From: Candidatus Heimdallarchaeota archaeon
Lineage (GTDB): Archaea > Asgardarchaeota > Heimdallarchaeia > Heimdallarchaeales > Heimdallarchaeaceae
Direction of reading: 5' to 3'
Length of the DNA stretch: 38,321 nucleotides
Assembly: GCA_021399395.1 (NCBI GenBank)
Contig: JAAFKJ010000017.1
Span: 1 to 38,321 of the forward strand
Shown here: positions 6,429 to 37,113 of the stretch, piece by piece
How the letters are laid out: every line of letters starts with the position of its first letter
How positions within the stretch are numbered: position 1 is the first letter of the stretch
Notes under the pieces: model-generated
Database searches by the model: none
What the model was told of the DNA's origin: nothing
The model's input: only the letters and a program-made list of their open reading frames with translations
Translations under genes and position numbers: made by a program

Positions 6429-6462
6429 TATTTTCCCTCTTATTTAGTTCTAGAAAGAACAT

Positions 6463-7353
6463 TCAGTAGAACTCCTTGGTTATAATATCGATTTGTTCTT
6501 TGCTCAAATCCAAAGGTGCGTGAGCAGGAATAACACCTTGATTGAGAGTGAAATCTCTCTCTTCATAGGTTGTTTTGTGTTCGATTTGATAGAAGATACC
6601 AATGGGCAGATTATCTTTGATGAATTTTTGGTTTGAAAGATCTAAAGCTGCATAGAAGTCTTCTTTATCATGATCTGTATCATCAACTTTGTAAACTCTT
6701 TCTCTGAAATAGTTGAAAGTTTGATTTCGATTGAAAGTTATACATGGGCTAAATACATCAACAAATGCAAAACCTCTGTGATCAATCGCTTCTTTGATAA
6801 TATAAGAAAGATGTTTAAGATCACCTGAAAAAGCTCTAGCAACAAAAGTGGCTCCAGCTGAAATCGCAGTTGCGATTGGATTAAGTGGATTTTCTATCGA
6901 TCCTCTTGGAGTAGTTCTTGTTATAGTGCCTACAGGTGTTGTTGCACTTGCTTGTCCAGTTGTTAGACCATAGACGAAGTTATTGGACACAATTGTAATA
7001 ATGTCTACATTTCTTCGACATGCATGCAAGAAGTGGTTTCCTCCGATACCATATATGTCACCATCGCCTCCATAAACTAAAACTGTAAGTTTCGGATTTG
7101 CTAGTCTTATTCCTGTAGCAACAGGTATTCCTCTCCCATGTACTGTTTGAAGACCATAGACTTTCAGAAAGTTTGGCATGTGTGAAGAACAGCCTATACC
7201 GCTTACCGCAACAACTTCCTCTGGTGGAATCTCTAATTCAATTAATGCTTGCCTAATAGCTCTCCATTGGGAGAAATTCCCACATCCAGGACACCACGTA
7301 GGTTTGAAATTACTCTCATAATCTTTAATTGTAAAGTTGAATTCTTCACTCAA
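6463..7353 (-). CDS. korB: 2-oxoacid:ferredoxin oxidoreductase beta subunit
   Basis: WCPGCG, SGIGCS, TPP motif GDGD...NN, SPCITFN; overlaps the alpha-subunit stop. Confidence 0.93.
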   Translation of the reverse strand: MSEEFNFTIKDYESNFKPTWCPGCGNFSQWRAIRQALIELEIPPEEVVAVSGIGCSSHMPNFLKVYGLQTVHGRGIPVATGIRLANPKLTVLVYGGDGDIYGIGGNHFLHACRRNVDIITIVSNNFVYGLTTGQASATTPVGTITRTTPRGSIENPLNPIATAISAGATFVARAFSGDLKHLSYIIKEAIDHRGFAFVDVFSPCITFNRNQTFNYFRERVYKVDDTDHDKEDFYAALDLSNQKFIKDNLPIGIFYQIEHKTTYEERDFTLNQGVIPAHAPLDLSKEQIDIITKEFY

Positions 7354-9094
7354 TATTTAACACCTCTTTAACTTTCGCAATAATTTGTGACGGGACTATT
7401 GGTTCTCCATCCCATCGTCTTAGATTGTGCTTGATGTCAAAACCAGTTTTCATTCGAATATAGTCATTCATTTGACCTGTAAAATTCTGCTCAACACAAA
7501 GGACTTCCTTCGCATTGCTTAGAATCTCTTTTACTTCTGTTTTGTGAAATGGATTAATAGCCTTTATATGTAATTGATTAGCTTCAATACCTTCTGCTTT
7601 TAGTAATTTGATTGCTTCTCTAAGTATATATTTTGTTGAACCCCATGAGACTAAAGTTATTGATGCTTCTTTTTCTCCGTAAATTTTTGGTTTTTCAAGT
7701 TCCTCTAAAATATACTCCAGCTTACGCATTCGTTTCTTAACCATTTCCTCTCTTATTGGAAGTGTTTCAGGTAATCCTGCTAATGTGGATGCAATAGATG
7801 TACCGCTTTCATTTCTTTCACTTGAACCAGTGAAAAACACCCCATTTTTGGTTCCAGGAAGAGTTCTTGGTGATACACCAGTTTTGGTAATCTTGTATCT
7901 AATATAGTCTTCAGAAGGTTTGTCCAAAATTGCAAACCTTGAGTTCTTCCGCTCTAAATCAAATTTTCTTACTGTTGCAATGTGTTCAGATAAATATAAG
8001 TCTAATAAAACTATAACAACAACTTGATATTTCTCAGCTATTTCAACAGCATCAACACCAACATTGAACGCTTCAATAACTGAACTTGGAGCCAAGATAA
8101 CCTTTGGAAATTCTCCTTGACTAATTCCATAAGCTTGGAAAAGATCTGCTTGTTCTGTTTTAGTTGCCATACCAGTTGACGGACCTGCTCGCTGTGAATT
8201 GATTACCACGAGCGGTATTTCCTCGATCCCTGCCATTCCAACTAGCTCAGACATAAGGCTAAAACCTCCACCAGATGTACCAGTTGCTGCACGAGCTCCA
8301 CAGTAAGCAGCACCAATCGCCATGCCTATAGCAGCAATTTCATCTTCAGTTTGTTTGACAATCATCCCAAGTTTAGGAAGATGTTTTGTCAGATAATGAA
8401 CAATGGAAGTGGCAGGAGTCATTGGATAGCCAGAATAGAACTTTAGGCCAGCTGAAATCATCCCAAGAGCTAAAGCTTCGTTTCCAGTAATAATCATCTG
8501 CTGAGCTTTTTCGTATTTGTGCTTTTCCCATTTTATCGGCCACTTGTTTTCTGTTGCAAATTTATCTCCCTTCTCCAGAGCTTCAAAATTTGTGAAAACA
8601 ACCTCTTCTCCCTTATGACCAAATTGCTCAACAATTACCTCTTTGATTAAAGTTTCATCTAACCCTAATATTTGGCTTATCGCTCCAAAACCTACTATGT
8701 TCTTCAAGACTTTTAATTTCGATATATCTTTAGTAATATTAGCTAAAGGAATTGGTAGTTTCTGAATATCTTCAGGATAATCGAGCTCATCTAAATTGAT
8801 GTAATCATTATCATAAATAACCATTGCATCCTTATTTACACGTACTCTGTGAATAGCTGCAACGGATTTGTTCAATAGAACGATGATGTCCGCTTCTTCT
8901 CCTATGGAAAGTACCTCGTCAGTTGATGCTCGAATCTGATATTCATTATATCCACCTCGAATAACAGATTGATAGCTTCTGAATCCAAGAACATTGAAAT
9001 TATGTTTTTTTAGGATTTTGCTGAAAAGGTTCCCTAAGGACACTAGACCGTCTCCCGCACTACCAACAAATCGAATAATAATATCCTTTGTCAT
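7346..9094 (-). CDS. korA: 2-oxoacid:ferredoxin oxidoreductase alpha subunit (gamma-alpha fusion)
   Basis: N-terminal gamma domain (GSAGDG, IRGG), GNEA, GYPMTP, EDEIAA, TSGGGFSL, RAGPSTG, EQNFTGQ. Confidence 0.94.
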   Translation of the reverse strand: MTKDIIIRFVGSAGDGLVSLGNLFSKILKKHNFNVLGFRSYQSVIRGGYNEYQIRASTDEVLSIGEEADIIVLLNKSVAAIHRVRVNKDAMVIYDNDYINLDELDYPEDIQKLPIPLANITKDISKLKVLKNIVGFGAISQILGLDETLIKEVIVEQFGHKGEEVVFTNFEALEKGDKFATENKWPIKWEKHKYEKAQQMIITGNEALALGMISAGLKFYSGYPMTPATSIVHYLTKHLPKLGMIVKQTEDEIAAIGMAIGAAYCGARAATGTSGGGFSLMSELVGMAGIEEIPLVVINSQRAGPSTGMATKTEQADLFQAYGISQGEFPKVILAPSSVIEAFNVGVDAVEIAEKYQVVVIVLLDLYLSEHIATVRKFDLERKNSRFAILDKPSEDYIRYKITKTGVSPRTLPGTKNGVFFTGSSERNESGTSIASTLAGLPETLPIREEMVKKRMRKLEYILEELEKPKIYGEKEASITLVSWGSTKYILREAIKLLKAEGIEANQLHIKAINPFHKTEVKEILSNAKEVLCVEQNFTGQMNDYIRMKTGFDIKHNLRRWDGEPIVPSQIIAKVKEVLNIE

Positions 9095-20049: not shown

Positions 20050-20799
20050 TTAGCTATAGAAGTCGTCTTCTTCGCGAACGTTTATATCCCCATCTTTGAT
20101 AATAGGTTCTACTTGGTAGACTATTCTTCCCTTCCAGAAATACTCACCAGTACGATAAATAGGATTCTTCCTCAGATAAGCTAAAGTGCTTCGTGGAATA
20201 TCATATTTGTTGCTAATAGTTGACATTGTAACATTATCTTCAAACATTTGAAAAATATCAATTAGCTTTGGTCTCATTTCCTCATCAATTTTTAGTTTAC
20301 CATCCTCTATCTTATATCCTATAGGTGGTCTAGACATGATCTTCTGATCCTGTATTCTACGTTTGATTCCGTACATTCTTTTCTGTCTATATTTCTTCAA
20401 CTCTTCTTCTCCCAGCAGATCATAGATTCTTGTAACTAGCATTTCTTCAGATTCTTCTGTAGCCCTGATTTCAACTCCTCTGCTTCGGAGTAGTACAGAA
20501 GCGTATCCAAGCATATCAACTTCTCTCGAAATTCTATCTCTTGTCTGTACCCACACTTCCCTGATTGGGTCTTCTGGTCTTTGAGAATTATAGGTTGAGA
20601 TGAACTCCAACATTTCCTTAAAAGCTGGTCTTTCCTCTATATGACTATCTCCAGAAACATCTTCATCTACGAAAGTGTCTAGAACGTGTCTGTAGCCGAT
20701 CGATTGTATTTTCTTATCAATTACATCAAACTGAGTATCTCTTCCTGATTCTTGATCAGCGGTACTAACTCTCACATAAGTAACGACATTCACATGCAT
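20050..20799 (-). CDS. Serine recombinase (resolvase catalytic domain + short recombinase DNA-binding domain)
   Basis: YVRVST..Q catalytic Ser, DEDVSG..ERPAF, RDRISRE, SRPPIGY, NPIY; ATG 20799 (alternative TTG 20808). Confidence 0.9.
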   Translation of the reverse strand: MHVNVVTYVRVSTADQESGRDTQFDVIDKKIQSIGYRHVLDTFVDEDVSGDSHIEERPAFKEMLEFISTYNSQRPEDPIREVWVQTRDRISREVDMLGYASVLLRSRGVEIRATEESEEMLVTRIYDLLGEEELKKYRQKRMYGIKRRIQDQKIMSRPPIGYKIEDGKLKIDEEMRPKLIDIFQMFEDNVTMSTISNKYDIPRSTLAYLRKNPIYRTGEYFWKGRIVYQVEPIIKDGDINVREEDDFYS

Positions 20800-20907
20800 A
20801 GTTTCCAAAAAGGTGGGTACTTCTTATAACCTAATGTAATCCCTAAATAGTACTTCAGAAATATGGTAGGCCTATCTAATTTTGTCGGGAAAAATACTTT
20901 ACCGAGT

Positions 20908-27029: not shown

Positions 27030-28778
27030 TTGAAAAATAAATTATTAATCGCAGCAGCAGTTTTGTTTGCTGCACTTATGACGACATCATCATCTATGTC
27101 TGTCCTTGCTCAAGATGACCCATTTGTTGGTGGTAGCATAACTGTTGCCAGTGGAACCGATCCACTAACACTTAACCCTCTAACATATGGTTCAATCTAT
27201 GAAGGATATATTATAGATTTTGTTTATGATGCACTTATAGCATTAGATACTGAGAATAATCCAATGCCTATTTTAGCTGAGTCTTGGGAACACAGCACAG
27301 ATAACACTGTATGGAACTTCACAATAAGATCCGGTGCAGTATGGCATGATGGTATTCCGTTAACATTAGATGACGTCGAGTATACATGGAATCTGAAACT
27401 AGGTGATGCTGGTCTTCCACGAAGAAGTTGGTTATTTGATGACCTTATTGGAATAACCAAGTTTCCAGCAGAAAATAAAATTCAAGCCGAATTTGATTTT
27501 TCACCAAAAAGTGCTGACATACTCCTAGATTTTGCAACTGGTACAATTTTACCTGAACATATTTGGGATGCTGTTGGAGATATTTACTCCTTCAACAATG
27601 AAGAGCCCCTAGGTAGTGGTCCATTCGTATTTGAAGAATGGGAAACAGGACAGTTCATTAAATTGTCTAGAAATCCAAACTACTTCTTAGATGGTCCATG
27701 GATTGAAGAATTGATTGTTCAATTAATTCCTTCAACTGAATCACAATATTACGCCTTAAGTACCGGTGAAATTGAAATGATGGGTGGCCCACCACCAGAA
27801 TTAGAAGCTTTAGCAGAGGTGGATCCAAACATTGAAGTTCATGAATTTTACCAAGATTACATCATGTACTTAACCATGAACCAGAGAAGATACCCAAATA
27901 ATGTGCTAGAATTCAGACAAGCTGTTCTAACTGGAATTAACAGAGATGAAATTGTTGATATTGCTCGTTATGGACGTGGTTTAACCTGTCCAGCTTCAAT
28001 GAGCTTACCATACGGTCTCTATTATAATCCAGATATTCCACAGTACGACTATGATGTTGCTGCAGCCAAGGCTCTATTAGATAGCATTGGATTTACTGAT
28101 GACATCGGAAGCGATGGAATTAGAGAAGATGCTAATGGCACAGATCTTTCATTTGAATTGTTAGTTTCAGCTGAAGCTCAAGAATCAGTTGATACTGCAA
28201 AACTAATCGAAGATTACATGGCCGATATTGGTGTTGAAGTAACACTCGTTCCAATCTTATTTGATCTCTTATGGACATATGTCGGTGGTCCTGGAGGAAC
28301 TTATCCAGATAAGTACGACTATGATTGGGCATTCCTCGGTTGGGTAGGCTTCTGGAGTGATTTCTATCCAAACTGGGCATATTGGATGTTCAGTGCTGAT
28401 AGATGGTGGGGATCAGATGAAGTAAACATTCCTGGATGGGATGGTACCCCAAAGGATGATGTTACTGCGCTTTGTGATGACATTTTGTATACAGTCAATG
28501 AAACTGAAATTTCAGAAAAGCTTGACGAAATACAAATGATTGTTGCAACCGATCTACCATACATACCAATTAATGTACTTGGTGGTGTTGCACTGTACAG
28601 AACAGATGAGTTCGCAGGATATGTCATGGGTAATACAACTGGACCAGACAATTGGATGACTTGGCTTAATTTGCATCTGATTGAACCTGTAGAAACCGAA
28701 GTTGCTCCAGCATTTACAATAATTGCTGCAGTAGTATCTGTATTTGCAGTAGCCAGATTCAGAAAACGTAAAAAATAA
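27030..28778 (+). CDS. oppA: Oligopeptide/dipeptide ABC transporter substrate-binding protein (family 5), C-terminally anchored
   Basis: Signal peptide, DPLTLNP, PILAESW, WHDG.P.T.DDV, GSGPF, RNPNY, FRQA, DLPYIP; PAF + TM + RFRKRKK tail. Confidence 0.92.
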   Translation: MKNKLLIAAAVLFAALMTTSSSMSVLAQDDPFVGGSITVASGTDPLTLNPLTYGSIYEGYIIDFVYDALIALDTENNPMPILAESWEHSTDNTVWNFTIRSGAVWHDGIPLTLDDVEYTWNLKLGDAGLPRRSWLFDDLIGITKFPAENKIQAEFDFSPKSADILLDFATGTILPEHIWDAVGDIYSFNNEEPLGSGPFVFEEWETGQFIKLSRNPNYFLDGPWIEELIVQLIPSTESQYYALSTGEIEMMGGPPPELEALAEVDPNIEVHEFYQDYIMYLTMNQRRYPNNVLEFRQAVLTGINRDEIVDIARYGRGLTCPASMSLPYGLYYNPDIPQYDYDVAAAKALLDSIGFTDDIGSDGIREDANGTDLSFELLVSAEAQESVDTAKLIEDYMADIGVEVTLVPILFDLLWTYVGGPGGTYPDKYDYDWAFLGWVGFWSDFYPNWAYWMFSADRWWGSDEVNIPGWDGTPKDDVTALCDDILYTVNETEISEKLDEIQMIVATDLPYIPINVLGGVALYRTDEFAGYVMGNTTGPDNWMTWLNLHLIEPVETEVAPAFTIIAAVVSVFAVARFRKRKK

Positions 28779-28784
28779 TAATCT

Positions 28785-28825
28785 AGAACTAAGGTTTTAA
28801 ACCTTAGCTTCTCCTATTTTTCTTT
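28785..28825 (+). terminator. Hairpin CTAAGGTT-TTA-AACCTTAG + T tract after the SBP gene
   Basis: Perfect stem at 28789-28807, extendable by AGAA/TTCT, followed by TATTTTTCTTT. Confidence 0.65.
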
Positions 28826-28840
28826 AGAATTGTTAAAAAT

Positions 28841-28898
28841 TAATGTTTAAATTAATAATGTTTATCTAAACATTAAGTATATCCCGAAATATTTAAAA
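28841..28898 (+). promoter_or_regulatory. Operator ATGTTTA-N17-TAAACAT (with nested perfect dyad TAATGTTTA-TC-TAAACATTA) + BRE CCCGAAATA + TATA, upstream of the permease genes
   Basis: Same architecture as 26899-26958. Confidence 0.65.
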
Positions 28899-28939
28899 AT
28901 ATTTCAACCATAAGGAGATACATCCAAGGAGAATTTATC

Positions 28940-30514
28940 ATGAATATGCGAGACGCTGAAGTCAAAATAGGTTTTTTTAACCGAGAAAAGAACTTTTCTT
29001 TGTTCATTATAGTGGGAGCTTTACCTTTATTGTTAACGATTAGCGCAGTTGTTGTTGGTGCCATTGCATCTTTAGCAACACCTCAAGAAATTCAATCATT
29101 TTTCAACATAAAAATCAATAGTTTCTTTGGAAGTAATAATCTTTGGTTTAGGAGTTTTATTAGTGATCTTAAGGACAACCTATACCTCGGACCCAAGGAT
29201 GTAATAGTATCAGGAGGAACAGCATCTATACCAATGTGGATGGCACTTGGTTGTGCAGTATTAACAATAGTGTTTTCAATCATCTATGTTGTTGTCGTAA
29301 AAAAAGACAAAATAGAAGAACACCGAAGATTTTTCAAATTATCTTCAGGTATGTTTTGGTTTCTCAACATTATCTTGATTCTAGGAGAACTCACCACTAT
29401 AACTATCCCTGATTGGAAGACATCTCAACATCCAGCTTATCTTGCTAAAATGATACTCGATATCCTTTGTATTGCCACTATAGCACTTCTTGTCTGGTCT
29501 TATTATGTGTGGAAGTACATTAATTGGAGGCTTGTAAAATATATAGTTAAGAAATTGTTATTTGCTCTTGTGGCTTATTATATTGCTATAACTCTTGTCT
29601 TTATTATTTACAGAGTAATGCCTGGAGATCCCACATTCATTTTTGCTACTCAAAGAGATGTTGACCCAGCTGTAACGCAAGCATTAATTGAACGATGGGG
29701 ATTAAATGAACCTCTTTGGAATCAATATTGGATATATCTTGGAAATGTTCTTCAAGGAAATCTTGGTTATTCATATCTCCATATGAAATATGTTAATGAA
29801 ATAATTGCTGATTTCGTCCCATGGTCACTTCTCCTTTTAGGGACAGCTTTTGTCCTTAATTCCGTAATTGGAATAGTTCTAGGTGCTGTTGTCGCTTGGA
29901 GAAGAGGGTCAAAACTAGATTCTGCTTTTGTACTGACATATAATGTCTATAATGCAATTCCGCTCTTCTTTGTAGGAATGATATTCATTGCAGTTTTTGG
30001 CTTTATGGCGAGAGATAATGGTTGGCTGATTTACTTCCCTATCTTTGGATCATATTCCGCTTCATTTACAGGAGGAGGATTGATGAAATTCTTGGATATA
30101 CTATGGCACATGTTCTTACCTTTGTTGGTTTTGGTGATATCTGGTGTTCTAGGTTGGTCTTGGTTCATGCGAGGGAATTTGATGAATGTAAAGACAGAAG
30201 ATTACATTCAAACAGCTAAAGCAAAAGGACTCAATGACAATCAAGTACTGTTCAAACATGGGTTCAGAAATGCTGCTTTGCCTGTTATTACCTCAATTGG
30301 GTTGAGTTTTGGTGGGTTAATTGGAGGGGCATTGTTAATTGAAAATGTATTTGCGTACAAAGGGATGGGTACGCTTATTTTTGGAGCAATCCAAAATAAG
30401 GATTACCAATTATTGATGGGAACTTTCATCATTATTGCAGGAATAACTCTCTTGGGTCTTCTCATAGCTGAGATATTTTATGGATTTGTGGATCCAAGGA
30501 TTAAAGCAGAATAG
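28940..30514 (+). CDS. oppB: Peptide ABC permease OppB/DppB with an extra N-terminal 4-TM domain
   Basis: MPGDP, GLNEPLWNQY..YL, GNLGYS, HMFLP, EAA loop EDYIQTAKAKGL, HGFRNA, IENVF, VDPRI. Confidence 0.9.
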   Translation: MNMRDAEVKIGFFNREKNFSLFIIVGALPLLLTISAVVVGAIASLATPQEIQSFFNIKINSFFGSNNLWFRSFISDLKDNLYLGPKDVIVSGGTASIPMWMALGCAVLTIVFSIIYVVVVKKDKIEEHRRFFKLSSGMFWFLNIILILGELTTITIPDWKTSQHPAYLAKMILDILCIATIALLVWSYYVWKYINWRLVKYIVKKLLFALVAYYIAITLVFIIYRVMPGDPTFIFATQRDVDPAVTQALIERWGLNEPLWNQYWIYLGNVLQGNLGYSYLHMKYVNEIIADFVPWSLLLLGTAFVLNSVIGIVLGAVVAWRRGSKLDSAFVLTYNVYNAIPLFFVGMIFIAVFGFMARDNGWLIYFPIFGSYSASFTGGGLMKFLDILWHMFLPLLVLVISGVLGWSWFMRGNLMNVKTEDYIQTAKAKGLNDNQVLFKHGFRNAALPVITSIGLSFGGLIGGALLIENVFAYKGMGTLIFGAIQNKDYQLLMGTFIIIAGITLLGLLIAEIFYGFVDPRIKAE

Positions 30515-30523
30515 GTGAACAAA

Positions 30524-32554
30524 ATGGAAGTACAAGATACAAAACGTGTCAGGAAAATAATGATTTATTGGTTATTATCATCAATTCTATTTATTGTAGA
30601 TGCGATTTATGTAGCTCTACCCGCATATAGAAATCCGACTACAAACAGAATATTACCTCATTTACAATTAGGTATTGAAACACCAATTTTGGTTAATCAA
30701 AATTATCTAGTTTGGGGGATTATGAATTTCATTGGTTTAGCTTCAATTATTTGTCTAATAATCGTAATTTTGAGACCTCAAAAGAGTAAAGACATTTACT
30801 TTGTTGGATTAATTCCATTTGTAATTTCAATTATCTCATTATCTTTTGGTACAGCAAGCTTCTGGGGAATACTCGCACTTATCTTTAATTTGATGATAGT
30901 TCTTAATGCTTTAAATCTTACAGGAAGGATGAAACAAGGTTTCAGCATAATAAATAGAACAATTTTTCAGAATGAGAAAATTGTTACTGGAGCAATTTGG
31001 TCTATAACAACAGTTGCGCTATTACTTGATGCAATTTTACTTGCATTTCCTGAGAGTCAAGTAGAAGGCATACAACTATTTCGAGGGATAATGGACTGTG
31101 TTGGTGCTGCATCTATTCTACTTGCATTTCTGCTATTCAATAAGAGTATATCAAAAAGAATAAAATTCTGGATTGGAATTATACCATTCGCTTCAACAAT
31201 GATAGGATTCTTGGGTGGATTTCCTGGTTCAATGACTTCAATTTGGATGTGGGTAGCTATTGTATTCAGTATTGTAAATTTAGTGAGTTTCGCAAATCTC
31301 TTTGGAGAAGTGAAAGATTTAATTCTCCTCAATAAGAAATTGCATTTTCTCTTATGGTCTTTAGCCTCAATCATGGCGGTTATAAATGCTCTGAAAGTGG
31401 TATTTCCGCTTTATTCCGTACAACAAAAAACTGTTCAACTTTCTTGGGGAATAATTGACATTATTTTTGCAGCGTCGGTAGTAGTTCCAGTATTAATTCA
31501 CTACTTCAAACCGAAAAAATGGGTAGTTATAGTTACTGGATTTATTCCTTTAATTCTTGGAGTGACAGATTTAATACTTGGAATTAAAGCAGAAAAAACA
31601 GAAATTTGGACATGGTTTTCACTAATATTAGGATTGTTTGCTACTTTGTTTGCCTTCTTAACTGTAGGTAACCCAAATAATCAGCAAAGAAGTTTGAAGA
31701 AATGGAAAAGGACTTGGGGAGTTTTCAAACAAAACTGGATGGGTGTTTCAGGACTCATTCTTTTAACTGCTATAGTCGTTCTAGCTGTAGGAGGTTCAAG
31801 ATTAACTAAGTGGGATCCTGATTCATATGGAGAAAGTGGAGCTCTTGAAGCACCAAGTGTTACTCACATTTTAGGAACAAATCGGTATGGTCAAGACGTA
31901 TTCACTGTCCTTTTAGATAGCCTAAGTATATCACTTTTAATAGGAATTATTGCGGGGAGTCTAACTGTGATACTCGGAACGACTATAGGAGTTGCGAGCG
32001 CATATTTAGGAGGATGGGTTGACACATTTATAATGCGTATAACAGATGTAGTGTTAGTAATGCCTGCACTACCTCTGATGTTAGTTCTAGCATCGCTACC
32101 GTTTCTCTTCGGTCAGGTTCATTGGTCAGTTATAGCAATAGTTTATATTGTTGTATTTTGGCCCGTATCTGCTAGACTCATTAGAGGTCAAGCTCTTTCA
32201 ATTAAAGAAAGAGCATTTGTTACAAGTGCTAAGTCATCAGGAGCAGGATCAAGATACATCATATTCAAGCATGTATTACCTAATGTATTTCCTCTCATGC
32301 TAACAATGATTATCACATCCATGAGACAAGCAATTCTCTATGAATCGTTCCTATCTTATTTGGGGTTAGGAGATCCTTTGAACTGGACTCTAGGGCAGAT
32401 GCTTTATATTGCACAGCAGCAAGCAGCTCTATCATCAGGAGCATGGTGGATGTTCTTCCCACCAGGTTTAGCAATTGGTCTGATTACTCTGAGTTTTGCT
32501 TTTATTGGGATGGCTTTAGATGAAATTGTCAATCCACGTTTGAGAAAGAGGTGA
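30524..32554 (+). CDS. oppC: Peptide ABC permease OppC/DppC with about 12 extra N-terminal TM helices (ATG 30524 follows AGGTGA; alternative GTG 30515)
   Basis: HILGTNRYGQDV, GGWVD...MRITD, ARLIRGQ, HVLPN, LSYLGLG, AWW..FPPG, NPRLR. Confidence 0.9.
   Translation: MEVQDTKRVRKIMIYWLLSSILFIVDAIYVALPAYRNPTTNRILPHLQLGIETPILVNQNYLVWGIMNFIGLASIICLIIVILRPQKSKDIYFVGLIPFVISIISLSFGTASFWGILALIFNLMIVLNALNLTGRMKQGFSIINRTIFQNEKIVTGAIWSITTVALLLDAILLAFPESQVEGIQLFRGIMDCVGAASILLAFLLFNKSISKRIKFWIGIIPFASTMIGFLGGFPGSMTSIWMWVAIVFSIVNLVSFANLFGEVKDLILLNKKLHFLLWSLASIMAVINALKVVFPLYSVQQKTVQLSWGIIDIIFAASVVVPVLIHYFKPKKWVVIVTGFIPLILGVTDLILGIKAEKTEIWTWFSLILGLFATLFAFLTVGNPNNQQRSLKKWKRTWGVFKQNWMGVSGLILLTAIVVLAVGGSRLTKWDPDSYGESGALEAPSVTHILGTNRYGQDVFTVLLDSLSISLLIGIIAGSLTVILGTTIGVASAYLGGWVDTFIMRITDVVLVMPALPLMLVLASLPFLFGQVHWSVIAIVYIVVFWPVSARLIRGQALSIKERAFVTSAKSSGAGSRYIIFKHVLPNVFPLMLTMIITSMRQAILYESFLSYLGLGDPLNWTLGQMLYIAQQQAALSSGAWWMFFPPGLAIGLITLSFAFIGMALDEIVNPRLRKR
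30569..31670 (+). repeat. Three tandem protein-level repeats (about 120-140 aa, 4 TM each) in the OppC extension
   Basis: W-x9-[DN]A-x5-P at W19/W162/W281 (numbered from 30515), then GI[MI][DN]-x4-AS, GxIP and late W motifs in each copy. Confidence 0.8.
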
Positions 32555-32558
32555 TGAA

Positions 32559-33668
32559 ATGGTATTACTTGATGTAAAAAATCTTAAAACTTATTTCGAG
32601 ACTAAACTCGGTTCAGTGAAAGCTGTTGATGATGTTAGTTTTCAATTGAAGAAAGGCGAAGTTCTCGGTCTTGCAGGTGAATCAGGATGTGGAAAAACGA
32701 CCACATGTCTATCTCTAATGCGTATGATTGAATTTCCTGGCAGAATTTTAAGTGGTAAAATAAACTATGAGTATACTAATTCTATTATAAAATCATATGA
32801 TGGAGCCTATGATAGATATTTGTTTGATAAAGTTAAACCTGCTAGAGAAAATAAAAAAGAATCAACAATATTCGAAGAAGCTTTTGTTGATAATATTCTC
32901 TTCAAAAGAGGTATCAAAGATAGATCTAACAACTTGTTAGATTTAACAGAAGCTGAAATGAGAAGAATCAGGGGTAAGCATATTGCTATGATATTTCAGG
33001 GAGCTATGAATGCCTTGAATCCTGTACATAGAGTCGGGAATCAAATAAAAGAAGCAATTACTATTCATGACCCTGATATTGAAAATAGAGATGCTTGGGA
33101 TAAAGTACTAAATATCCTAGAGACTGTTGGAATAGATTCTTCTAGAGCTAGAGATTACCCTCATCAATTAAGTGGAGGAATGAAACAAAGAGCATTGATA
33201 GCAATGGCTCTTGTGAATAATCCACAAATTGTCATAGCTGATGAACCAGTTACAGCGTTAGATGTTATCGTTCAAGCTCAAGTTCTTAAAGCTACTAAAG
33301 AGTTACAAAAACAATTTGACCTATCTATGATTATGATCACACACGATCTTTCTGTAATAGCAGAAGTATGTGAAACACTTGCAATTATGTATGCTGGAAA
33401 GATGGTGGAATATGGAAAACTAAGGGATGTTTACAAAGAACCACTACACCCCTATACTGATGCACTAATCAACGCGTTTCCAAGCATAACAGGTCCAAAG
33501 ACAGAACTTTTTGATATCGGAGGACGACCTCCAGATTTGAGAAATCCACCAACTGGTTGTCGGTTTCATCCAAGGTGTCCAAAAGTTATGCCAATTTGCA
33601 GCAAAGAGGAACCTAGAATTACAAAAATTAGAGAAGGATATGTTATTTGTCACTTATATCAAGATTAA
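32559..33668 (+). CDS. oppD: Peptide ABC ATPase OppD/DppD with an insert of about 50 aa
   Basis: GESGCGKT, MIFQ, YPHQLSGGMKQR, IADEP, ITHDL, HPY, GCRFHPRC...C...C. Confidence 0.93.
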   Translation: MVLLDVKNLKTYFETKLGSVKAVDDVSFQLKKGEVLGLAGESGCGKTTTCLSLMRMIEFPGRILSGKINYEYTNSIIKSYDGAYDRYLFDKVKPARENKKESTIFEEAFVDNILFKRGIKDRSNNLLDLTEAEMRRIRGKHIAMIFQGAMNALNPVHRVGNQIKEAITIHDPDIENRDAWDKVLNILETVGIDSSRARDYPHQLSGGMKQRALIAMALVNNPQIVIADEPVTALDVIVQAQVLKATKELQKQFDLSMIMITHDLSVIAEVCETLAIMYAGKMVEYGKLRDVYKEPLHPYTDALINAFPSITGPKTELFDIGGRPPDLRNPPTGCRFHPRCPKVMPICSKEEPRITKIREGYVICHLYQD

Positions 33669-33680
33669 GAGGAAAAAAAG

Positions 33681-34904
33681 ATGTCAGTAAAAAAAGTAGT
33701 AATCGAAACTAAAAATCTGAAAAAACACTTTCCTGTAGCTGGAGCTGTATTTAGAACAATTACTGGTGGTGGACAAAAATATGTTCATGCTGTCGATGGA
33801 GTCACCTTCAAAATTTACAAAGGTGAAACTTTTGGTCTCGTAGGAGAAAGCGGGTGTGGAAAATCTACAACTGGTGTGTTAATTCTGCAACTTCTAGATA
33901 GAACTAGTGGAGAAATTTACTTTAAGGGAATAGAAACTTCCGAATATACCAGGAAACAATTGTGGATCAGCACTATCAGATCATTCTTTCATTTTATTTT
34001 TGGAACATTAAAAAGAGAAGAAAGAGAAAGAGAAGAAGCTGATCAAGATGTTACTAAAGTATCTAAAAAATCTAAGAAGAAGAAGAAGAAGAAGAAGAAG
34101 TATAAGTATAAAATAGTTAGAATAGATTGGAAGGATGTAAAAAATACCTTTCAAGAATACCGAAAACGAGTTCTATTATTTAGAAAGAATATCCAAATAG
34201 TTTTTCAGAATCCTTATGAGTCTTTAAGTCCTCGATTTAATGTTCTTGATACTATTGCTGAACCTCTTAGATTAATGAATATTGTTGAAGATGAACTTGA
34301 AATTGAAAAAATGGTCATTAATGAACTTGAAGAAGTAGGACTTGTACCAGGAACTGAATTTCTAGATAGATACCCACATGAACTGAGTGGTGGTCAAAGA
34401 CAAAGAGTCGGTGTTGCTAGAGCTTTCATTCTAGATCCTGAATTTGTTGTAGCGGATGAACCAGTCTCTATGCTTGATGTTTCTGTTCGAGTTGGGGTTC
34501 TTAAGATAATGCGCGAGTTAACTAAAAGAAGAGGAACAGGTTTCCTTTTCATTACTCATGATCTCGCTCTTGCTAGACACATGTGTGACAGAATAGCTGT
34601 AATGTACCTAGGCAGAATAGTTGAACAAGGACCAACTGAGGAACTCATTCGTAAACCATTACATCCGTATACAAAAGCACTCATCAAAGCAGTTCCAACA
34701 GCAGATCCAGATGCAAGAAGAACAGAAGATTTACCAATTGAGGGAGAAGTACCTAGCGGTATTGACATACCAGAAGGGTGTCGATTTCACCCCAGATGTC
34801 CATATGTGGCAGATGAATGCAAACTAACAGATCCTGTTCTTGAATCAGCAAAAGAAGATTATATGGTAGCATGTATAAGGTTTAGGAAAATCAATGAACT
34901 TTGA
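33681..34904 (+). CDS. oppF: Peptide ABC ATPase OppF/DppF with a charged insert of about 70 aa
   Basis: GESGCGKS, IVFQNP, YPHELSGGQRQR, ADEPVSMLDVS, HPY, GCRFHPRCP. Confidence 0.93.
   Translation: MSVKKVVIETKNLKKHFPVAGAVFRTITGGGQKYVHAVDGVTFKIYKGETFGLVGESGCGKSTTGVLILQLLDRTSGEIYFKGIETSEYTRKQLWISTIRSFFHFIFGTLKREEREREEADQDVTKVSKKSKKKKKKKKKYKYKIVRIDWKDVKNTFQEYRKRVLLFRKNIQIVFQNPYESLSPRFNVLDTIAEPLRLMNIVEDELEIEKMVINELEEVGLVPGTEFLDRYPHELSGGQRQRVGVARAFILDPEFVVADEPVSMLDVSVRVGVLKIMRELTKRRGTGFLFITHDLALARHMCDRIAVMYLGRIVEQGPTEELIRKPLHPYTKALIKAVPTADPDARRTEDLPIEGEVPSGIDIPEGCRFHPRCPYVADECKLTDPVLESAKEDYMVACIRFRKINEL
34074..34100 (+). repeat. Perfect (AAG)9 microsatellite encoding Lys9 in OppF
   Basis: Read directly from the sequence; in frame. 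Confidence 0.95.
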
Positions 34905-34917
34905 GTAATAAGAGGTA

Positions 34918-37113
34918 ATGAAGGGTGTAAATATGAATTCTGAAATTATCAAGAAAATAGATCATCAGATGCTTAAAGGAGAATATAAAAGCGCATTTGA
35001 TCTGATAAATGAAACTCAGAGTAAGACAACCCTTTCAGAGGAGGAACAAATCATCCTAGATAGTAAAAAATGTCTATTATTAAGATACCTAGGTGAATTT
35101 GAAGAACTCATAAAAATCTCTAAAAAAGTTCAATCAAAAGCAAAGACACTTAATGAAAATCTAATTCAAGTAGATGCTCTAATTCTGGAAATTTTTGCAC
35201 ATTACAGATTGAACAAAGTTGAATATGTTCTTGAACTGATAAATAAAGCAGAAAATCTTTTGTCAAAGCTTAAAACAAAGGATGTAGTCAATCTTCGAAC
35301 ACGACTATTATCGTATAAAGCATATGCTTGTATTACAAATGGTGATTTTGATCAAGCTCAGCTTCATTCTCGAGAAAATTTTATGTTATGTAAAGAACAA
35401 AACAATCCTGAATTACTAGCTGCTGCTCATTATATCAACGGATGGACACACATGCATAAAGGTGATATGCGCTCAGCTGCTGAAAGTTACAAAGAAAGTT
35501 TAATTATCAGAGAAGAACTCAACAACAACCCATATGATCTATCTCATTCTCTTTTTGGCTTAGGTTTTGTATACAGAAACTTAGGTGATCTTGATGATGC
35601 ATTCTCTTGTTTAAATCGATGTAAAAAAATTAGAGTCAAAATTGGAAATCAACAAGATATTATCTGGACCTTACTTAATCTAGGTGATGTCCTTTATACA
35701 AAGAATGAAGTTAAGAAAGCTCAAGAATATTATGATGAAGCATTGTTGATTAGTCAAAGTCTGAACTACATTTCAGGCATTATATTCTCTCTACGAAGAC
35801 TAAGTTCAGTTTATGAGAATCTTGAGGAACCACAACTAGTTTTGGATACTTTGGAAAAATCACTTGATTATTCTAAACAACTTGAAGATGTTGATCCTGA
35901 GGTTTATAGTTTATTTGATCTAATTAGATACTTATTAGAAAATAATATTGAATCAAAAGAGCTTAAAGAATACACATTAAGATTAAAAACTATAAATCAG
36001 ACTTATAAAAACAAAATCTTCAATTTAGTTTATCGATTATCTCAAGCTTTATTATTAAATGCAAAAAAAGAGAAACGCAATCAAATTAAGGCTCGGAACT
36101 TATTTAGAGATATATCTGAGGAAGAGATTATTAGTTTTGAATATACAAAAATTGCTATGCAGAATTATAGTAAACTTTTGGCAGAAGAACTAACTAGATA
36201 TCTAAATGATGAAATTCTAACCAGTCAATTAACTGATCTATCAGAGAGCATAAGTCATGATGTATTTCACAGATCATATACTCAAGTTGCTGAAAACTTC
36301 TTAGATTTAAGTCAAATTGCTTTACAGGAAATTGATATTAACAAAGCACGTGAATTATTGCGAAGAGCTCAATATTTGTGCGATTTTCTGAATCTATATA
36401 ATAAGGGATCTACCCCGTTTCGAATAATATATTCATTATTTGCTAAAGAAAGAAGTCTTAGCGAATTAAGCAAAATTCTGAAAATAACTAAAGGTGCTTT
36501 AAGCACACAATTGAAATCACTAATTGATTTAGAAATTGTCAGAATCTCAAGAGAAGAGCAGGTTAGATCTGCGACTATGTTAAAGAAATATTATACACTA
36601 GGGGACATGGGTATTGAGCTTCTTAGACCTCTGAGCATTAAACTATGTGATAGCTTAAATGTAGAGGTTAATGACACTAACATTTTGATTGATAACCTCA
36701 TGAAACCAAGACTTTTGTTAAAGATTATTAGAGATACAACAAATCTCATTGACAATTTTCAAAACTTCCTAGAAGAACAAGTTTTTCTAAAATCATCAGA
36801 TTCGAAAAAGAAAGAAAGAGATGTAGTCTTACTGAACGATGTGAAGAAGATTTTTGGTAAAACTACAGATGTTCAAGTAGATCAATTTTTCTTGACTGAG
36901 AAGCAATATCAAACGTATAAGAAAATGTGGAAGGAATTTTCAGAGAAGATAAGGTCAGAAGTTGTTGTAGAAGATATTACTTCACCAGAATACCATTCAA
37001 AAGAAAAACCGATTTATGTAGCTAATCTTGTGCTTCCCATAAATGAAATGATGGCTCTTGAAAGATACCAACTAAAACAAAGGAAGATTAAAGAAAAGAA
37101 ACCAGACGATTAG
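34918..37113 (+). CDS. TPR-repeat protein with a C-terminal ArsR-like winged HTH; putative transcription regulator (start may be ATG 34933)
   Basis: TPRs (SLFGLGFVYRNLGDLDDA, TLLNLGDVLY...A.EYY..AL); wHTH FRIIYSL...SLSELSKILKITKGALSTQLKSLIDLEIV...KYYTL. Confidence 0.85.
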   Translation: MKGVNMNSEIIKKIDHQMLKGEYKSAFDLINETQSKTTLSEEEQIILDSKKCLLLRYLGEFEELIKISKKVQSKAKTLNENLIQVDALILEIFAHYRLNKVEYVLELINKAENLLSKLKTKDVVNLRTRLLSYKAYACITNGDFDQAQLHSRENFMLCKEQNNPELLAAAHYINGWTHMHKGDMRSAAESYKESLIIREELNNNPYDLSHSLFGLGFVYRNLGDLDDAFSCLNRCKKIRVKIGNQQDIIWTLLNLGDVLYTKNEVKKAQEYYDEALLISQSLNYISGIIFSLRRLSSVYENLEEPQLVLDTLEKSLDYSKQLEDVDPEVYSLFDLIRYLLENNIESKELKEYTLRLKTINQTYKNKIFNLVYRLSQALLLNAKKEKRNQIKARNLFRDISEEEIISFEYTKIAMQNYSKLLAEELTRYLNDEILTSQLTDLSESISHDVFHRSYTQVAENFLDLSQIALQEIDINKARELLRRAQYLCDFLNLYNKGSTPFRIIYSLFAKERSLSELSKILKITKGALSTQLKSLIDLEIVRISREEQVRSATMLKKYYTLGDMGIELLRPLSIKLCDSLNVEVNDTNILIDNLMKPRLLLKIIRDTTNLIDNFQNFLEEQVFLKSSDSKKKERDVVLLNDVKKIFGKTTDVQVDQFFLTEKQYQTYKKMWKEFSEKIRSEVVVEDITSPEYHSKEKPIYVANLVLPINEMMALERYQLKQRKIKEKKPDD

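What the first reader, a model, noticed from the sequence alone, without database searches (positions are those of the whole stretch)
30515..31690. OppC permease fused to three tandem copies of an unrecognised 4-TM module
Seen: OppC is about 680 aa, and its canonical core starts only near residue 395. The extension holds three repeats. Helix 1 reads WLLSSILFIVDAIYVALP / WSITTVALLLDAILLAFP / WSLASIMAVINALKVVFP, with exact W-x9-D/N-x6-P spacing. Helix 2 reads WGIMNFIGLASI / RGIMDCVGAASI / WGIIDIIFAASV. Helix 3 carries GLIPF / GIIPF / GFIPL, and helix 4 carries SFWG / SIWMW / EIWTW. Established: OppC/DppC permeases are usually about 300 aa with 6 TM. Inference: about 12 added helices with conserved intramembrane Asp/Asn form an accessory membrane domain (ion-coupled sensing, lipid or lipopeptide handling, or scaffolding) that I cannot assign to a known family.
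Basis: partly seen in the sequence, partly recalled or inferred. Interest (0 to 1): 0.85.

Follow-up and report, generated by a model that had tools for sequence, protein, structure and literature searches.

The report
Repeated four-helix membrane modules on OppC
A peptide-type ABC importer of a Heimdall-group archaeon carries an undescribed, tandemly repeated four-helix membrane bundle in front of its OppC permease, with a shifted copy on OppB, and its function is still unknown.

Summary
ORF 30515-32554 (+) encodes a 679-aa OppC-type permease. Its Pfam core begins at residue 397.

Residues 15-392 are three homologous 4-TM units. Smith-Waterman z is 10-15, with 0 of 300 shuffles reaching the score. 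hhalign gives E 1e-11 to 2e-18. Each unit models as a discrete up-down four-helix bundle (pLDDT 90).

No Pfam, NCBIfam, PDB-sequence or fold match goes beyond the generic four-helix bundle.

The module occurs only on OppC-type permeases. It is present in 8 of 400 genomes of the phylum and 2 clusters among 1.84 billion representatives. Copy number is 1, 3, or 3 plus a divergent insert.

New here: wherever OppC has three or more copies and upstream DNA is available, OppB carries a ~200-aa extension. That extension holds the same helices in a shifted order.

The extension evolves much faster than the core but keeps W, D/E, P and a second polar residue.

The most likely role is a non-catalytic peripheral membrane scaffold, and that part is inferred. 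I class it as a new variant of a known kind, of moderate interest.

The parts
30515..32554 (+). OppC-type ABC permease gene, 679 aa, with a 395-aa N-terminal extension
   Evidence: ORF; Pfam OppC_N and BPD_transp_1; NCBIfam best match Opp4C at 216.5 bits, below its 350-bit cut-off
30557..30934 (+). Repeat unit R1 (aa 15-140): 4 TM helices, W19-x9-D29-x6-P36, and a long conserved outside loop between helices 1 and 2
   Evidence: the unit profile matches this stretch at E 4.8e-38
30980..31318 (+). Repeat unit R2 (aa 156-268): 4 TM helices, W162-x9-D172-x6-P179
   Evidence: modelled alone as a four-helix bundle with pLDDT 90.1 and pTM 0.82
31325..31690 (+). Repeat unit R3 (aa 271-392): 4 TM helices, W281-x9-N291-x6-P298. 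It lies next to the core and is orthologous to the single module of the one-copy relatives
   Evidence: tree, where R3, G089_R3 and the single-copy modules group at 90/89
31703..31822 (+). OppC_N (aa 397-436), the first canonical helix of the permease core
   Evidence: Pfam PF12911, E 6.6e-6, 26.4 bits against a 23.9-bit cut-off
31976..32548 (+). BPD_transp_1 permease core (aa 488-678)
   Evidence: Pfam PF00528, E 1.8e-25
28940..30514 (+). OppB-type permease gene, 524 aa; the canonical core starts at residue 199
   Evidence: (BPD_transp_1_N 199-283, BPD_transp_1 311-522)
28940..29536 (+). OppB N-terminal extension (aa 1-199) with 4 TM helices. The last helix of its first half resembles unit helix 4, and its last two helices resemble unit helices 1-2
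   Evidence: hydropathy; hhalign; conserved in 3 other genomes and in L053
29330..29506 (+). OppB half-module (aa 131-189) with W140-x9-E150-x6-P157, homologous to unit helices 1-2
   Evidence: hhalign Prob 94.7%, E 5.8e-8; the halves test gave 96.5%, E 7e-10, with cross-controls below 1%
27030..28778 (+). Family-5 solute-binding protein with an N-terminal signal-like segment and a C-terminal hydrophobic anchor followed by a basic tail
   Evidence: Pfam SBP_bac_5, E 3.9e-70; sequence
32559..33668 (+). OppD-type ATPase
   Evidence: ABC_tran plus oligo_HPY
33681..34904 (+). OppF-type ATPase with a lysine-rich insert
   Evidence: ABC_tran (two stretches) plus oligo_HPY; sequence

Best explanation
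Shown. The 395-residue N-terminus of this OppC-type permease is a real, translated accessory membrane domain specific to this lineage. It is a tandem array of three homologous four-helix transmembrane bundles with an N-in topology, and the even helix count leaves the core topology intact. It grew by tandem duplication from a single module next to the core; relatives carry 1, 3, or 3 plus a divergent insert. In loci where OppC has three or more copies, the partner OppB carries a fourth set of the same helices in a shifted order (helix 4, then helices 1-2). The translocator therefore has about 28 TM helices instead of 12.

Inferred. The bundles do not form a second transport pathway. They sit as a non-catalytic belt or scaffold at the lipid-facing periphery of the OppBC core. 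Each helix 1-2 hairpin keeps a buried acidic or polar pair in the outer-leaflet half: D/E on helix 1 seven residues before the outside Pro, and D/E/N/S on helix 2. This pair either clamps the two helices together or offers a polar binding site that opens to the outside. The scaffold would modulate assembly, stability or partner docking of a peptide-type ABC importer.
For: Repeats.

Fold: each unit is a confident bundle on its own (pLDDT 90.1, pTM 0.82). In the whole-domain model every structural match covers only one unit, with aligned lengths of about 93-131 residues. The single longer row is talin, 304 aligned at rmsd 21.8. pTM is only 0.46, which reads as separate beads and not as one 12-TM fold.

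Topology: K+R 27 inside against 5 outside.

Fusion partner: every clear hit is an OppC permease. All 6 of 6 hits and all 6 of 6 carry PF00528 and PF12911. No protein of 62-268 aa scored among 4780 candidates.

Copy number and orthology: and the tree.

OppB extension: present in 4 of 4 loci with three or more copies and upstream DNA (the window, G040, G032, G039; also metagenome locus L053). OppB ORFs of ordinary length (340-351 aa) occur in 3 of 3 one-copy loci. Homology to the unit.

Constraint: W 16/16, P 16/16, D 13/16 (N 2, S 1) on helix 1. The helix-2 position is polar in 16/16 units (D 7, N 4, E 3, S 2).

A non-catalytic role fits the evolutionary rate. Extension versus core identity is 64-66% vs 91-94%, 56% vs 87-88%, and 27% vs 69%.
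Against: No experiment or binding prediction supports any particular role. The arrangement of the bundles relative to each other and to the core is not known (pTM 0.46). No model of the full OppBC pair was possible within the size limits.

A strictly conserved charged residue inside the membrane is more than a passive scaffold usually needs. The module is missing from most genomes of the same genus (18 of 25 had no match; those genomes are 72-92% complete). Whatever it does is therefore dispensable or niche-specific.
Confidence: 0.5

Rival explanations
1. Cation- or proton-binding regulatory module. The conserved acidic pair on helices 1 and 2 of every hairpin binds Na+, H+ or a divalent metal from the outside and tunes the importer, or pre-concentrates a cationic or metal-bearing substrate.
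For: Acidic or polar residues sit at both positions in 16 of 16 units, and E150 plus D/E in the OppB half-module. Both lie one to two turns below the outside end of their helices (topology). The binding protein also scores against nickel and opine binders: NikA E 1.5e-34, CntA E 2e-21, all below cut-off. Weak sub-threshold similarity to the Cad metal-transporter family appears in 2 of 16 units.
Against: The third repeat tolerates N or S at the helix-1 position in 3 of 16 units. No metal-site motif or known ion-binding fold was found. The Cad hits are below gathering score (21.1 against 26.2 bits) and inconsistent. The gene neighbourhood is peptide catabolism.
Confidence: 0.2
2. Docking rack for tethered binding proteins. 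Each bundle captures the C-terminal membrane anchor of one solute-binding protein, so several receptors are held beside one translocator. This would be functionally like the tandem fused binding domains of GlnPQ or OpuA (recalled).
For: The binding protein in every locus examined ends in a hydrophobic anchor with a basic tail. That is 8 loci: the window, G040, G032, G039, L053, G024, G030 and G031. The module number varies, as would be expected for a valency device. R1 has a long conserved outside loop (P36, Y38, Q51 and P57 invariant).
Against: One-copy and three-copy loci have the same kind of anchor, so the anchor does not track copy number. The anchor resembles a sorting signal that may be cleaved off and replaced by a lipid (recalled, not tested). 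No interaction was tested.
Confidence: 0.15
3. Nearly neutral lineage-specific expansion. A hydrophobic hairpin or bundle that duplicates easily because an even number of helices is topologically harmless, with no specific function beyond being tolerated.
For: Fast divergence: 27% identity against 69% in the core. Copy number is variable. Distribution is patchy and narrow: 8 of 400 genomes and 2 clusters among 1.84 billion representatives.
Against: The same handful of positions is invariant or nearly so in all copies, across genera and down to 27% identity, including a charged residue that is costly to bury in a membrane. The reading frame is open in every copy examined. OppB gained a matching extension in step with the OppC expansion.
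Confidence: 0.12
4. Artefact: an assembly chimera or a mis-called fusion of a separate upstream membrane-protein gene with OppC.
For: The genome is a fragmented metagenome-type assembly: 201 contigs, 81.8% complete.
Against: The same continuous frame occurs with a conserved junction (G385, N386, N388, N389 and R392 invariant). It is seen in independent genomes and contigs at 27-98% identity. No Met lies between residue 396 and the middle of core helix 1.
Confidence: 0.02

Closest known systems
Canonical OppC/DppC/NikC permeases of Opp-type ABC importers
   Same: The core from residue 396 on matches OppC_N plus BPD_transp_1. The operon order is binding protein, OppB, OppC, OppD, OppF. The best NCBIfam matches are Opp4C, Opp2C and NikC.
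   Different: Canonical forms are about 300 aa with 6 TM helices; this genome's own second operon has an OppC of 306 aa and an OppB of 352 aa. This protein adds 12 TM helices in front of the core. All NCBIfam equivalog cut-offs are missed, so the substrate cannot be named.
MalF of the maltose importer, a type I ABC permease with extra N-terminal helices (recalled, not tested here)
   Same: An ABC importer permease enlarged at its N-terminus by extra membrane helices that are not part of the conserved core.
   Different: As recalled, MalF adds only a few helices and a large periplasmic loop that contacts the binding protein. Here there are three to four complete, mutually homologous four-helix bundles with short loops. 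No sequence relation was seen: no Pfam or PDB sequence hit.
GlnPQ/OpuA-type importers with accessory domains fused in tandem to the permease (recalled)
   Same: A variable number of copies of an accessory domain is fused to the N-terminus of the translocator subunit.
   Different: Those accessory domains are soluble substrate-binding domains of known fold and function. Here the repeated domain is membrane-embedded and has no known ligand.
Small 4-TM auxiliary or scaffold proteins of the claudin/TARP-gamma, tetraspanin-like and MARVEL kinds
   Same: They share an up-down four-helix membrane bundle. They appear among the structural matches at Z 8-11.
   Different: Soluble four-helix bundles score as high or higher: copper storage protein Z 11.7, an engineered single-chain ROP four-helix bundle Z 13.3. 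The match is therefore only to a common arrangement. There is no sequence similarity (4-16% identity) and no large outside domain.
Pfam DUF308 (HdeD-type short membrane repeat) and Cad (CadD) families
   Same: These are the best sub-threshold sequence matches to single units: E 4.1e-4 and E 3.4e-4.
   Different: They are below gathering score (21 against 25 bits; 21.1 against 26.2 bits). They are seen in 1 and 2 of 16 units only, and cover only part of a unit.

Membership tests
Opp/Dpp-type ABC importer permease, OppC branch | BPD_transp_1 permease core above Pfam gathering score | tested here: met
   PF00528, 90.2 bits against a 26.4-bit cut-off, residues 488-678
Opp/Dpp-type ABC importer permease, OppC branch | OppC_N first helix ahead of the core | tested here: met
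   PF12911, 26.4 bits against a 23.9-bit cut-off, residues 397-436
Opp/Dpp-type ABC importer permease, OppC branch | Operon with a family-5 binding protein, an OppB partner and two ATPases carrying oligo_HPY | tested here: met
   SBP_bac_5; BPD_transp_1 with BPD_transp_1_N; two copies of ABC_tran with oligo_HPY
Named NCBIfam equivalogs (Opp4C, NikC, DppC, GsiD and others) | Score above the curated equivalog cut-off | tested here: not met
   The best is Opp4C at 216.5 bits against a 350-bit cut-off. All 15 listed families are below their cut-offs.
Any described protein family covering the extension | A Pfam or NCBIfam model matching residues 1-395, or a single unit, above its cut-off | tested here: not met
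   No Pfam hit at E<=0.1 in residues 1-396. 0 of 16 units reach any gathering score. NCBIfam reports 0 families for residues 1-395.
DUF308 (HdeD-type repeat) | Pfam PF03729 above its gathering score | tested here: not met
   1 of 16 units matches, at 21 bits against a 25-bit cut-off
Cad (CadD cadmium resistance transporter) | Pfam PF03596 above its gathering score | tested here: not met
   2 of 16 units match, the best at 21.1 bits against a 26.2-bit cut-off, covering part of the profile only
Claudin, tetraspanin or MARVEL-type 4-TM proteins | A fold match standing clearly above unrelated four-helix bundles | tested here: inconclusive
   Z 8-11, tied with or below soluble bundles. Foldseek E >= 0.6.
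Known 12-TM transporter folds (for example MFS) | A whole-domain structural match | tested here: inconclusive
   The best Foldseek E is 0.19 and TM-scores are <= 0.23. VIA matches cover single units only. The model's own pTM is only 0.46.

The most novel reading that the evidence does not exclude
The module is a self-contained, plug-in four-helix membrane bundle. It duplicates and moves between the subunits of one ABC importer: OppC in 1, 3 or 4 copies, OppB in a shifted order, and possibly an insertion near the N-terminus of the OppF-like ORF in genome G089. Together the copies would build a 16-20-helix outer ring whose outward-facing acidic pairs form an in-membrane capture site. That site would bind cationic or lipid-linked substrates, or the anchors of several binding proteins. 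This would be a new way of accessorising a type I ABC importer, from the archaeal group closest to eukaryotes.
Probability: 0.12. Interest if true: 0.75.

Novelty: new variant of a known kind. Interest (0 to 1): 0.5.

Why it matters
As far as I recall, type I ABC importers are described with 10-14 core helices and only small additions. An Opp system with about 28 helices (32 in the long forms) extends the known architecture of the class. The extra helices are built from a repeated bundle that no family library or solved structure accounts for.

The case also shows domain birth and tandem expansion in progress, from 1 to 3 to 4 copies, with a matched gain on the partner subunit inside one genus.

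The practical weight is limited. The family is very narrow, its function is unknown, and the fold is the commonest helical arrangement.

Tried and rejected
Binding test. I sent the OppC extension (alignment A3) and the OppB extension (A4) as a complex. The answer was 'no answer' with a score of 0.00, and the controls were not run. It says nothing either way.

ESM Atlas look-up of residues 1-395.

Weak hits. These were G231, G366, G373, G374 and G375, at E 1e-3 to 7e-3. I read 3 of their loci (L007, L008, L012; L009, L011 and L015 were not read). L007 and L012 hold a 338-343-aa membrane protein between two ATPase-like ORFs, and L008 holds soluble proteins. None has an Opp core. I rejected them as chance.

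Weak hits to the unit profile. There were 18 genomes at E 6e-6 to 8.3e-4, each matching only part of the unit. I read 7 of the 18 loci (L025-L029, L032, L036). By eye these are other membrane proteins and none is an Opp permease. Their families were not tested. I treat these hits as chance, and the other 11 were not read.

Fold searches. Foldseek against the PDB with both models gave 0 matches at E<=0.001. The wide VIA-align searches gave only generic four-helix bundles, with best Z 11.7 and 13.3. That is at or below the level the tool's own note calls common for helical bundles.

PDB sequence profile. One hit, a halorhodopsin at E 0.19, which I rejected.

Internal duplication within the unit. 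Helices 1-2 against helices 3-4 gave Prob 0.4%, so the unit is not two copies of one hairpin at detectable level.

Metagenome scans. A search with the G089 fourth-module ORF gave 0 relatives among 70 pattern matches. The N-domain alignment gave one locus, L053, with the same architecture as G039.

Literature. Two full-text searches were made: 'OppC' + 'N-terminal extension' + 'transmembrane' found 1 paper, and 'Heimdallarchaeia' + 'peptide' + 'ABC transporter' + 'permease' found 4 papers. I saw only the listings and the starts of the abstracts, and none concerns this domain. This is a thin basis for saying it is not in print.

Earlier findings of this scan. Look-ups by place and by sequence both returned nothing.
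Full report
**What is there**

The window is contig C20 of a 2.8-Mb assembly of 201 contigs, 82% complete. A 98%-identical protein is named by NCBI as coming from a Candidatus Heimdallarchaeaceae MAG.

Positions 27030-34904 hold a complete Opp-type ABC importer operon on the + strand:
- a family-5 binding protein (SBP_bac_5);
- OppB, 524 aa;
- OppC, 679 aa, at 30515-32554;
- two ATPases carrying oligo_HPY.

A TPR plus HTH_5 protein follows the operon. In OppC, Pfam finds OppC_N at residues 397-436 and BPD_transp_1 at 488-678, and nothing before that at E<=0.1. NCBIfam finds no family for residues 1-395. The core scores best against Opp4C, Opp2C and NikC, but below every equivalog cut-off, so the substrate class (peptide, possibly nickel or opine) cannot be named from the permease. 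The surrounding genes point to peptide use: two S9 peptidases, an S58 peptidase, a beta-lactamase-fold protein with a Pab87 octamerisation domain, aminotransferases and a 2-oxoacid:ferredoxin oxidoreductase.

**The repeat is real**

I defined three units: R1 (aa 15-140), R2 (156-268) and R3 (271-392).

Pairwise local alignments score 105, 92 and 120. Composition-preserving shuffles score about 33 +/- 6, so z is 10-15, and 0 of 300 shuffles reached the observed score. The same units against the OppC core give z below 1, which shows that hydrophobic composition alone does not produce the signal.

Per-repeat profiles cut from an alignment of eight homologues match each other by hhalign at E 7.8e-16, 1.1e-11 and 1.6e-18.

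In an alignment of 16 units from seven genomes, column counts are:
- helix 1: Trp 16/16, Pro 16/16, and the residue ten positions after Trp is D 13, N 2, S 1;
- helix 2: a second polar position, D 7, N 4, E 3, S 2;
- helix 3: Gly 13/16 and Pro 14/16;
- helix 4: the S-x-W start, S 12/16 and W 13/16.

Helices 1-2 and helices 3-4 are not detectably related to each other (Prob 0.4%). The unit is therefore four helices and not a doubled hairpin.

**Topology and fold**

Hydropathy and the models give twelve helices ahead of the core. With the N-terminus inside, the loops assigned to the inside hold 27 K+R and those assigned to the outside hold 5. Because each unit has an even number of helices, any copy number delivers the chain to OppC helix 1 from the correct side.

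On this topology the helix-1 Asp lies seven residues before the outside Pro, and the helix-2 polar residue lies four residues after the outside Trp/Arg-Gly. Both are therefore one to two turns below the outer surface. This is an inference from sequence and topology; I could not read model coordinates.

Unit R2, modelled with the 16-unit alignment, is a confident up-down four-helix bundle (pLDDT 90.1, pTM 0.82). The whole extension models at pLDDT 73.7 but pTM 0.46. The units are well defined, but their mutual arrangement is not.

**Comparison with known structures and families**

- Foldseek against the PDB gave no match at E<=0.001 for either model. For the 12-helix model the best was E 0.19 with TM <= 0.23. 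For the unit the best was E 0.61, and the best TM of 0.75 was to a soluble plant invertase inhibitor.
- The wide VIA-align searches gave flat lists of generic four-helix bundles. The best Z was 11.7 for the unit and 13.3 for the whole model. For the whole model the matches covered only one unit at a time, apart from one talin row (304 aligned, rmsd 21.8). Soluble bundles tie with membrane 4-TM proteins of the claudin/TARP, tetraspanin-like and MARVEL kinds, so the fold carries no functional information.
- A profile of the unit against all PDB sequences found one hit at E 0.19.
- No unit reaches a Pfam gathering score (0 of 16). The best are Cad at 21.1 against 26.2 bits (2 units) and DUF308 at 21 against 25 bits (1 unit).

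**Distribution**

- HMMER with residues 1-395 against 1.84 billion cluster representatives found two clusters only. One is at 66% identity. The other is a 716-aa OppC at 27% identity, E 4.1e-21, which also has three units.
- The word-indexed search found 6 proteins, all OppC permeases: 4 of 676-680 aa and 2 of 828 and 837 aa.
- The unit profile against 400 genomes of the phylum gave strong matches (E <= 2e-32) in 8 genomes: 7 of 25 in the window's genus (counting the window's own genome) and 1 of 11 in a genus of another family of the same class.
- The remaining 18 genomes had partial matches at E 6e-6 to 8e-4. The 7 loci I read are other membrane proteins.
- Against 5.8 billion proteins, the unit profile found only OppC permeases among longer proteins (6 of 6). 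It found nothing among 4780 candidates of 62-268 aa. Both searches depend on shared words, so absence here is weak evidence.
- Within the window's own genome the module occurs only here.

**Copy number and history**

- G000, G032, G040 and G089 have three units.
- G039, P0006, P0007 and metagenome locus L053 have three units plus an insert of about 150 aa with four helices, placed between helices 2 and 3 of R3. The profile match to R3 is split there. The insert aligns to unit helices 2-4 at Prob 73.5%, E 3e-5, so it is probably a divergent fourth copy.
- G024, G030, G031 and P0009 have OppC proteins of 489-501 aa with a single unit.

In a maximum-likelihood tree of the 16 units, R1, R2 and R3 of the genus form separate clades with support 95/98, 99/99 and 100/99. 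The single-copy units group with R3 and with G089's R3 at 90/89. The core-proximal unit is therefore the original one, and R1 and R2 arose by duplication before the three-copy species diverged. The placement of G089's R1 and R2 is unresolved because of long branches.

The one-copy and multi-copy loci share gene order. By eye they also share the divergent upstream beta-lactamase-fold gene (not aligned).

**OppB carries the same helices**

The window's OppB core starts at residue 199, and the 198 residues before it hold four hydrophobic helices. The same extension is present in G040, G032, G039 (ORFs of 535, 534 and 539 aa) and L053. It is absent from the three one-copy loci, whose OppB ORFs are 351, 351 and 340 aa. 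The G089 contig ends before OppB.

- hhalign of the OppB extension profile against the unit profile aligns OppB residues 131-189 with unit helices 1-2 (Prob 94.7%, E 5.8e-8).
- That OppB stretch has the exact W140-x9-E150-x6-P157 spacing and an acidic residue at the helix-2 position.
- Tested in halves, the second half of the OppB extension matches helices 1-2 (96.5%, E 7e-10).
- The end of the first half, around GGTASIPMWMALG, matches helix 4 (79.3%, E 1.6e-5).
- The three cross-comparisons give Prob below 1%.

OppB therefore has the helices in the order (?)-4-1-2, a shifted register of the OppC array. The gain of the OppB extension tracks the OppC expansion. The loci involved are related, so this is not a statistical test.

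**Rate of change**

Against the window protein, extension versus core identity is:
- 64-66% against 91-94% (P0003, P0004, P0005);
- 56% against 87-88% (P0006, P0007);
- 27% against 69% (P0008).

The extension is under much looser constraint than the translocator. It nevertheless keeps its frame, its hydrophobic pattern and a small set of invariant positions, including a buried charge.

**How it most likely works**

The anatomy, the homology of the units, the restriction to OppC (and OppB), and the duplication history are shown. The rest is inferred.

Separate bundles, fast divergence and the lack of any transporter-like fold argue against a second substrate path. I therefore favour a non-catalytic peripheral scaffold around the OppBC core. 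In this view the conserved D/E plus polar pair acts either as an inter-helix clamp or as an outward-opening polar site.

The rivals are:
- a cation-binding or regulatory site (0.2);
- a docking rack for the membrane anchors of the binding protein (0.15);
- a nearly neutral expansion (0.12);
- an artefact (0.02).

One attempt to test contact between the OppB and OppC extensions gave no verdict and is recorded only under Tried and rejected.

**Novelty and score**

The transporter is an ordinary Opp-type importer. The appended domain matches no curated family and no distinctive solved fold. Two literature searches found nothing on it (listings only).

I class it as a new variant of a known kind. 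Interest is 0.5. The architecture is unusual (about 28 helices) and is a tidy example of domain birth and expansion in an Asgard lineage. Against that, the family is very narrow, the fold is the commonest helical bundle, and no function is established.

Noticed in passing
L016 (G089:C136:1-1822), minus strand, contig positions about 2-583: A fourth copy of the module (E 2.4e-18 to the unit profile) lies in an ORF just downstream of OppD. Its first ~25 residues look by eye like the start of an OppF ATPase. The ORF runs off the contig end. It could be a module inserted into OppF, a second permease, or an assembly chimera.
   Followed up: partly
window 33681-34904 (OppF), roughly residues 85-165: The OppF-type ATPase has an insert of about 80 aa that splits the ABC_tran match into two stretches. 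The insert includes a run of about a dozen lysines.
   Followed up: no
own genome, contig C28, minus strand, 4978-8862: A second Opp-like pair also has enlarged permeases. The OppB-like protein is 870 aa and its core starts near residue 531, after a long extension. That extension has a repetitive, apparently extracellular region and further hydrophobic helices. The OppC-like protein is 419 aa with a ~126-aa extension. Neither matches the module profile. A third pair on C183 is of canonical size (352 and 306 aa).
   Followed up: partly
window 28690-28778 (C-terminus of the binding protein); also L047-L052: All binding proteins of these loci end in P-[AG]-F, then a hydrophobic helix, then a K/R-rich tail. 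This resembles an archaeal C-terminal sorting signal (recalled; no model was run for it).
   Followed up: no
window 34918-37113: A 731-aa TPR plus ArsR-type HTH protein lies directly downstream of the operon. A homologous ORF follows the operon in L053, so it may be the operon's regulator.
   Followed up: no
window 20050-20808 (-): A serine-recombinase (resolvase) gene sits among peptide- and amino-acid-catabolic genes, about 6 kb upstream of the operon.
   Followed up: no
window 30515 / 30524: The longest ORF starts at a GTG that abuts the OppB stop codon. The Met at residue 4 (ATG 30524) is invariant in all seven aligned homologues, and the NCBI relative starts there. The true start is therefore probably 30524.
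   Followed up: partly
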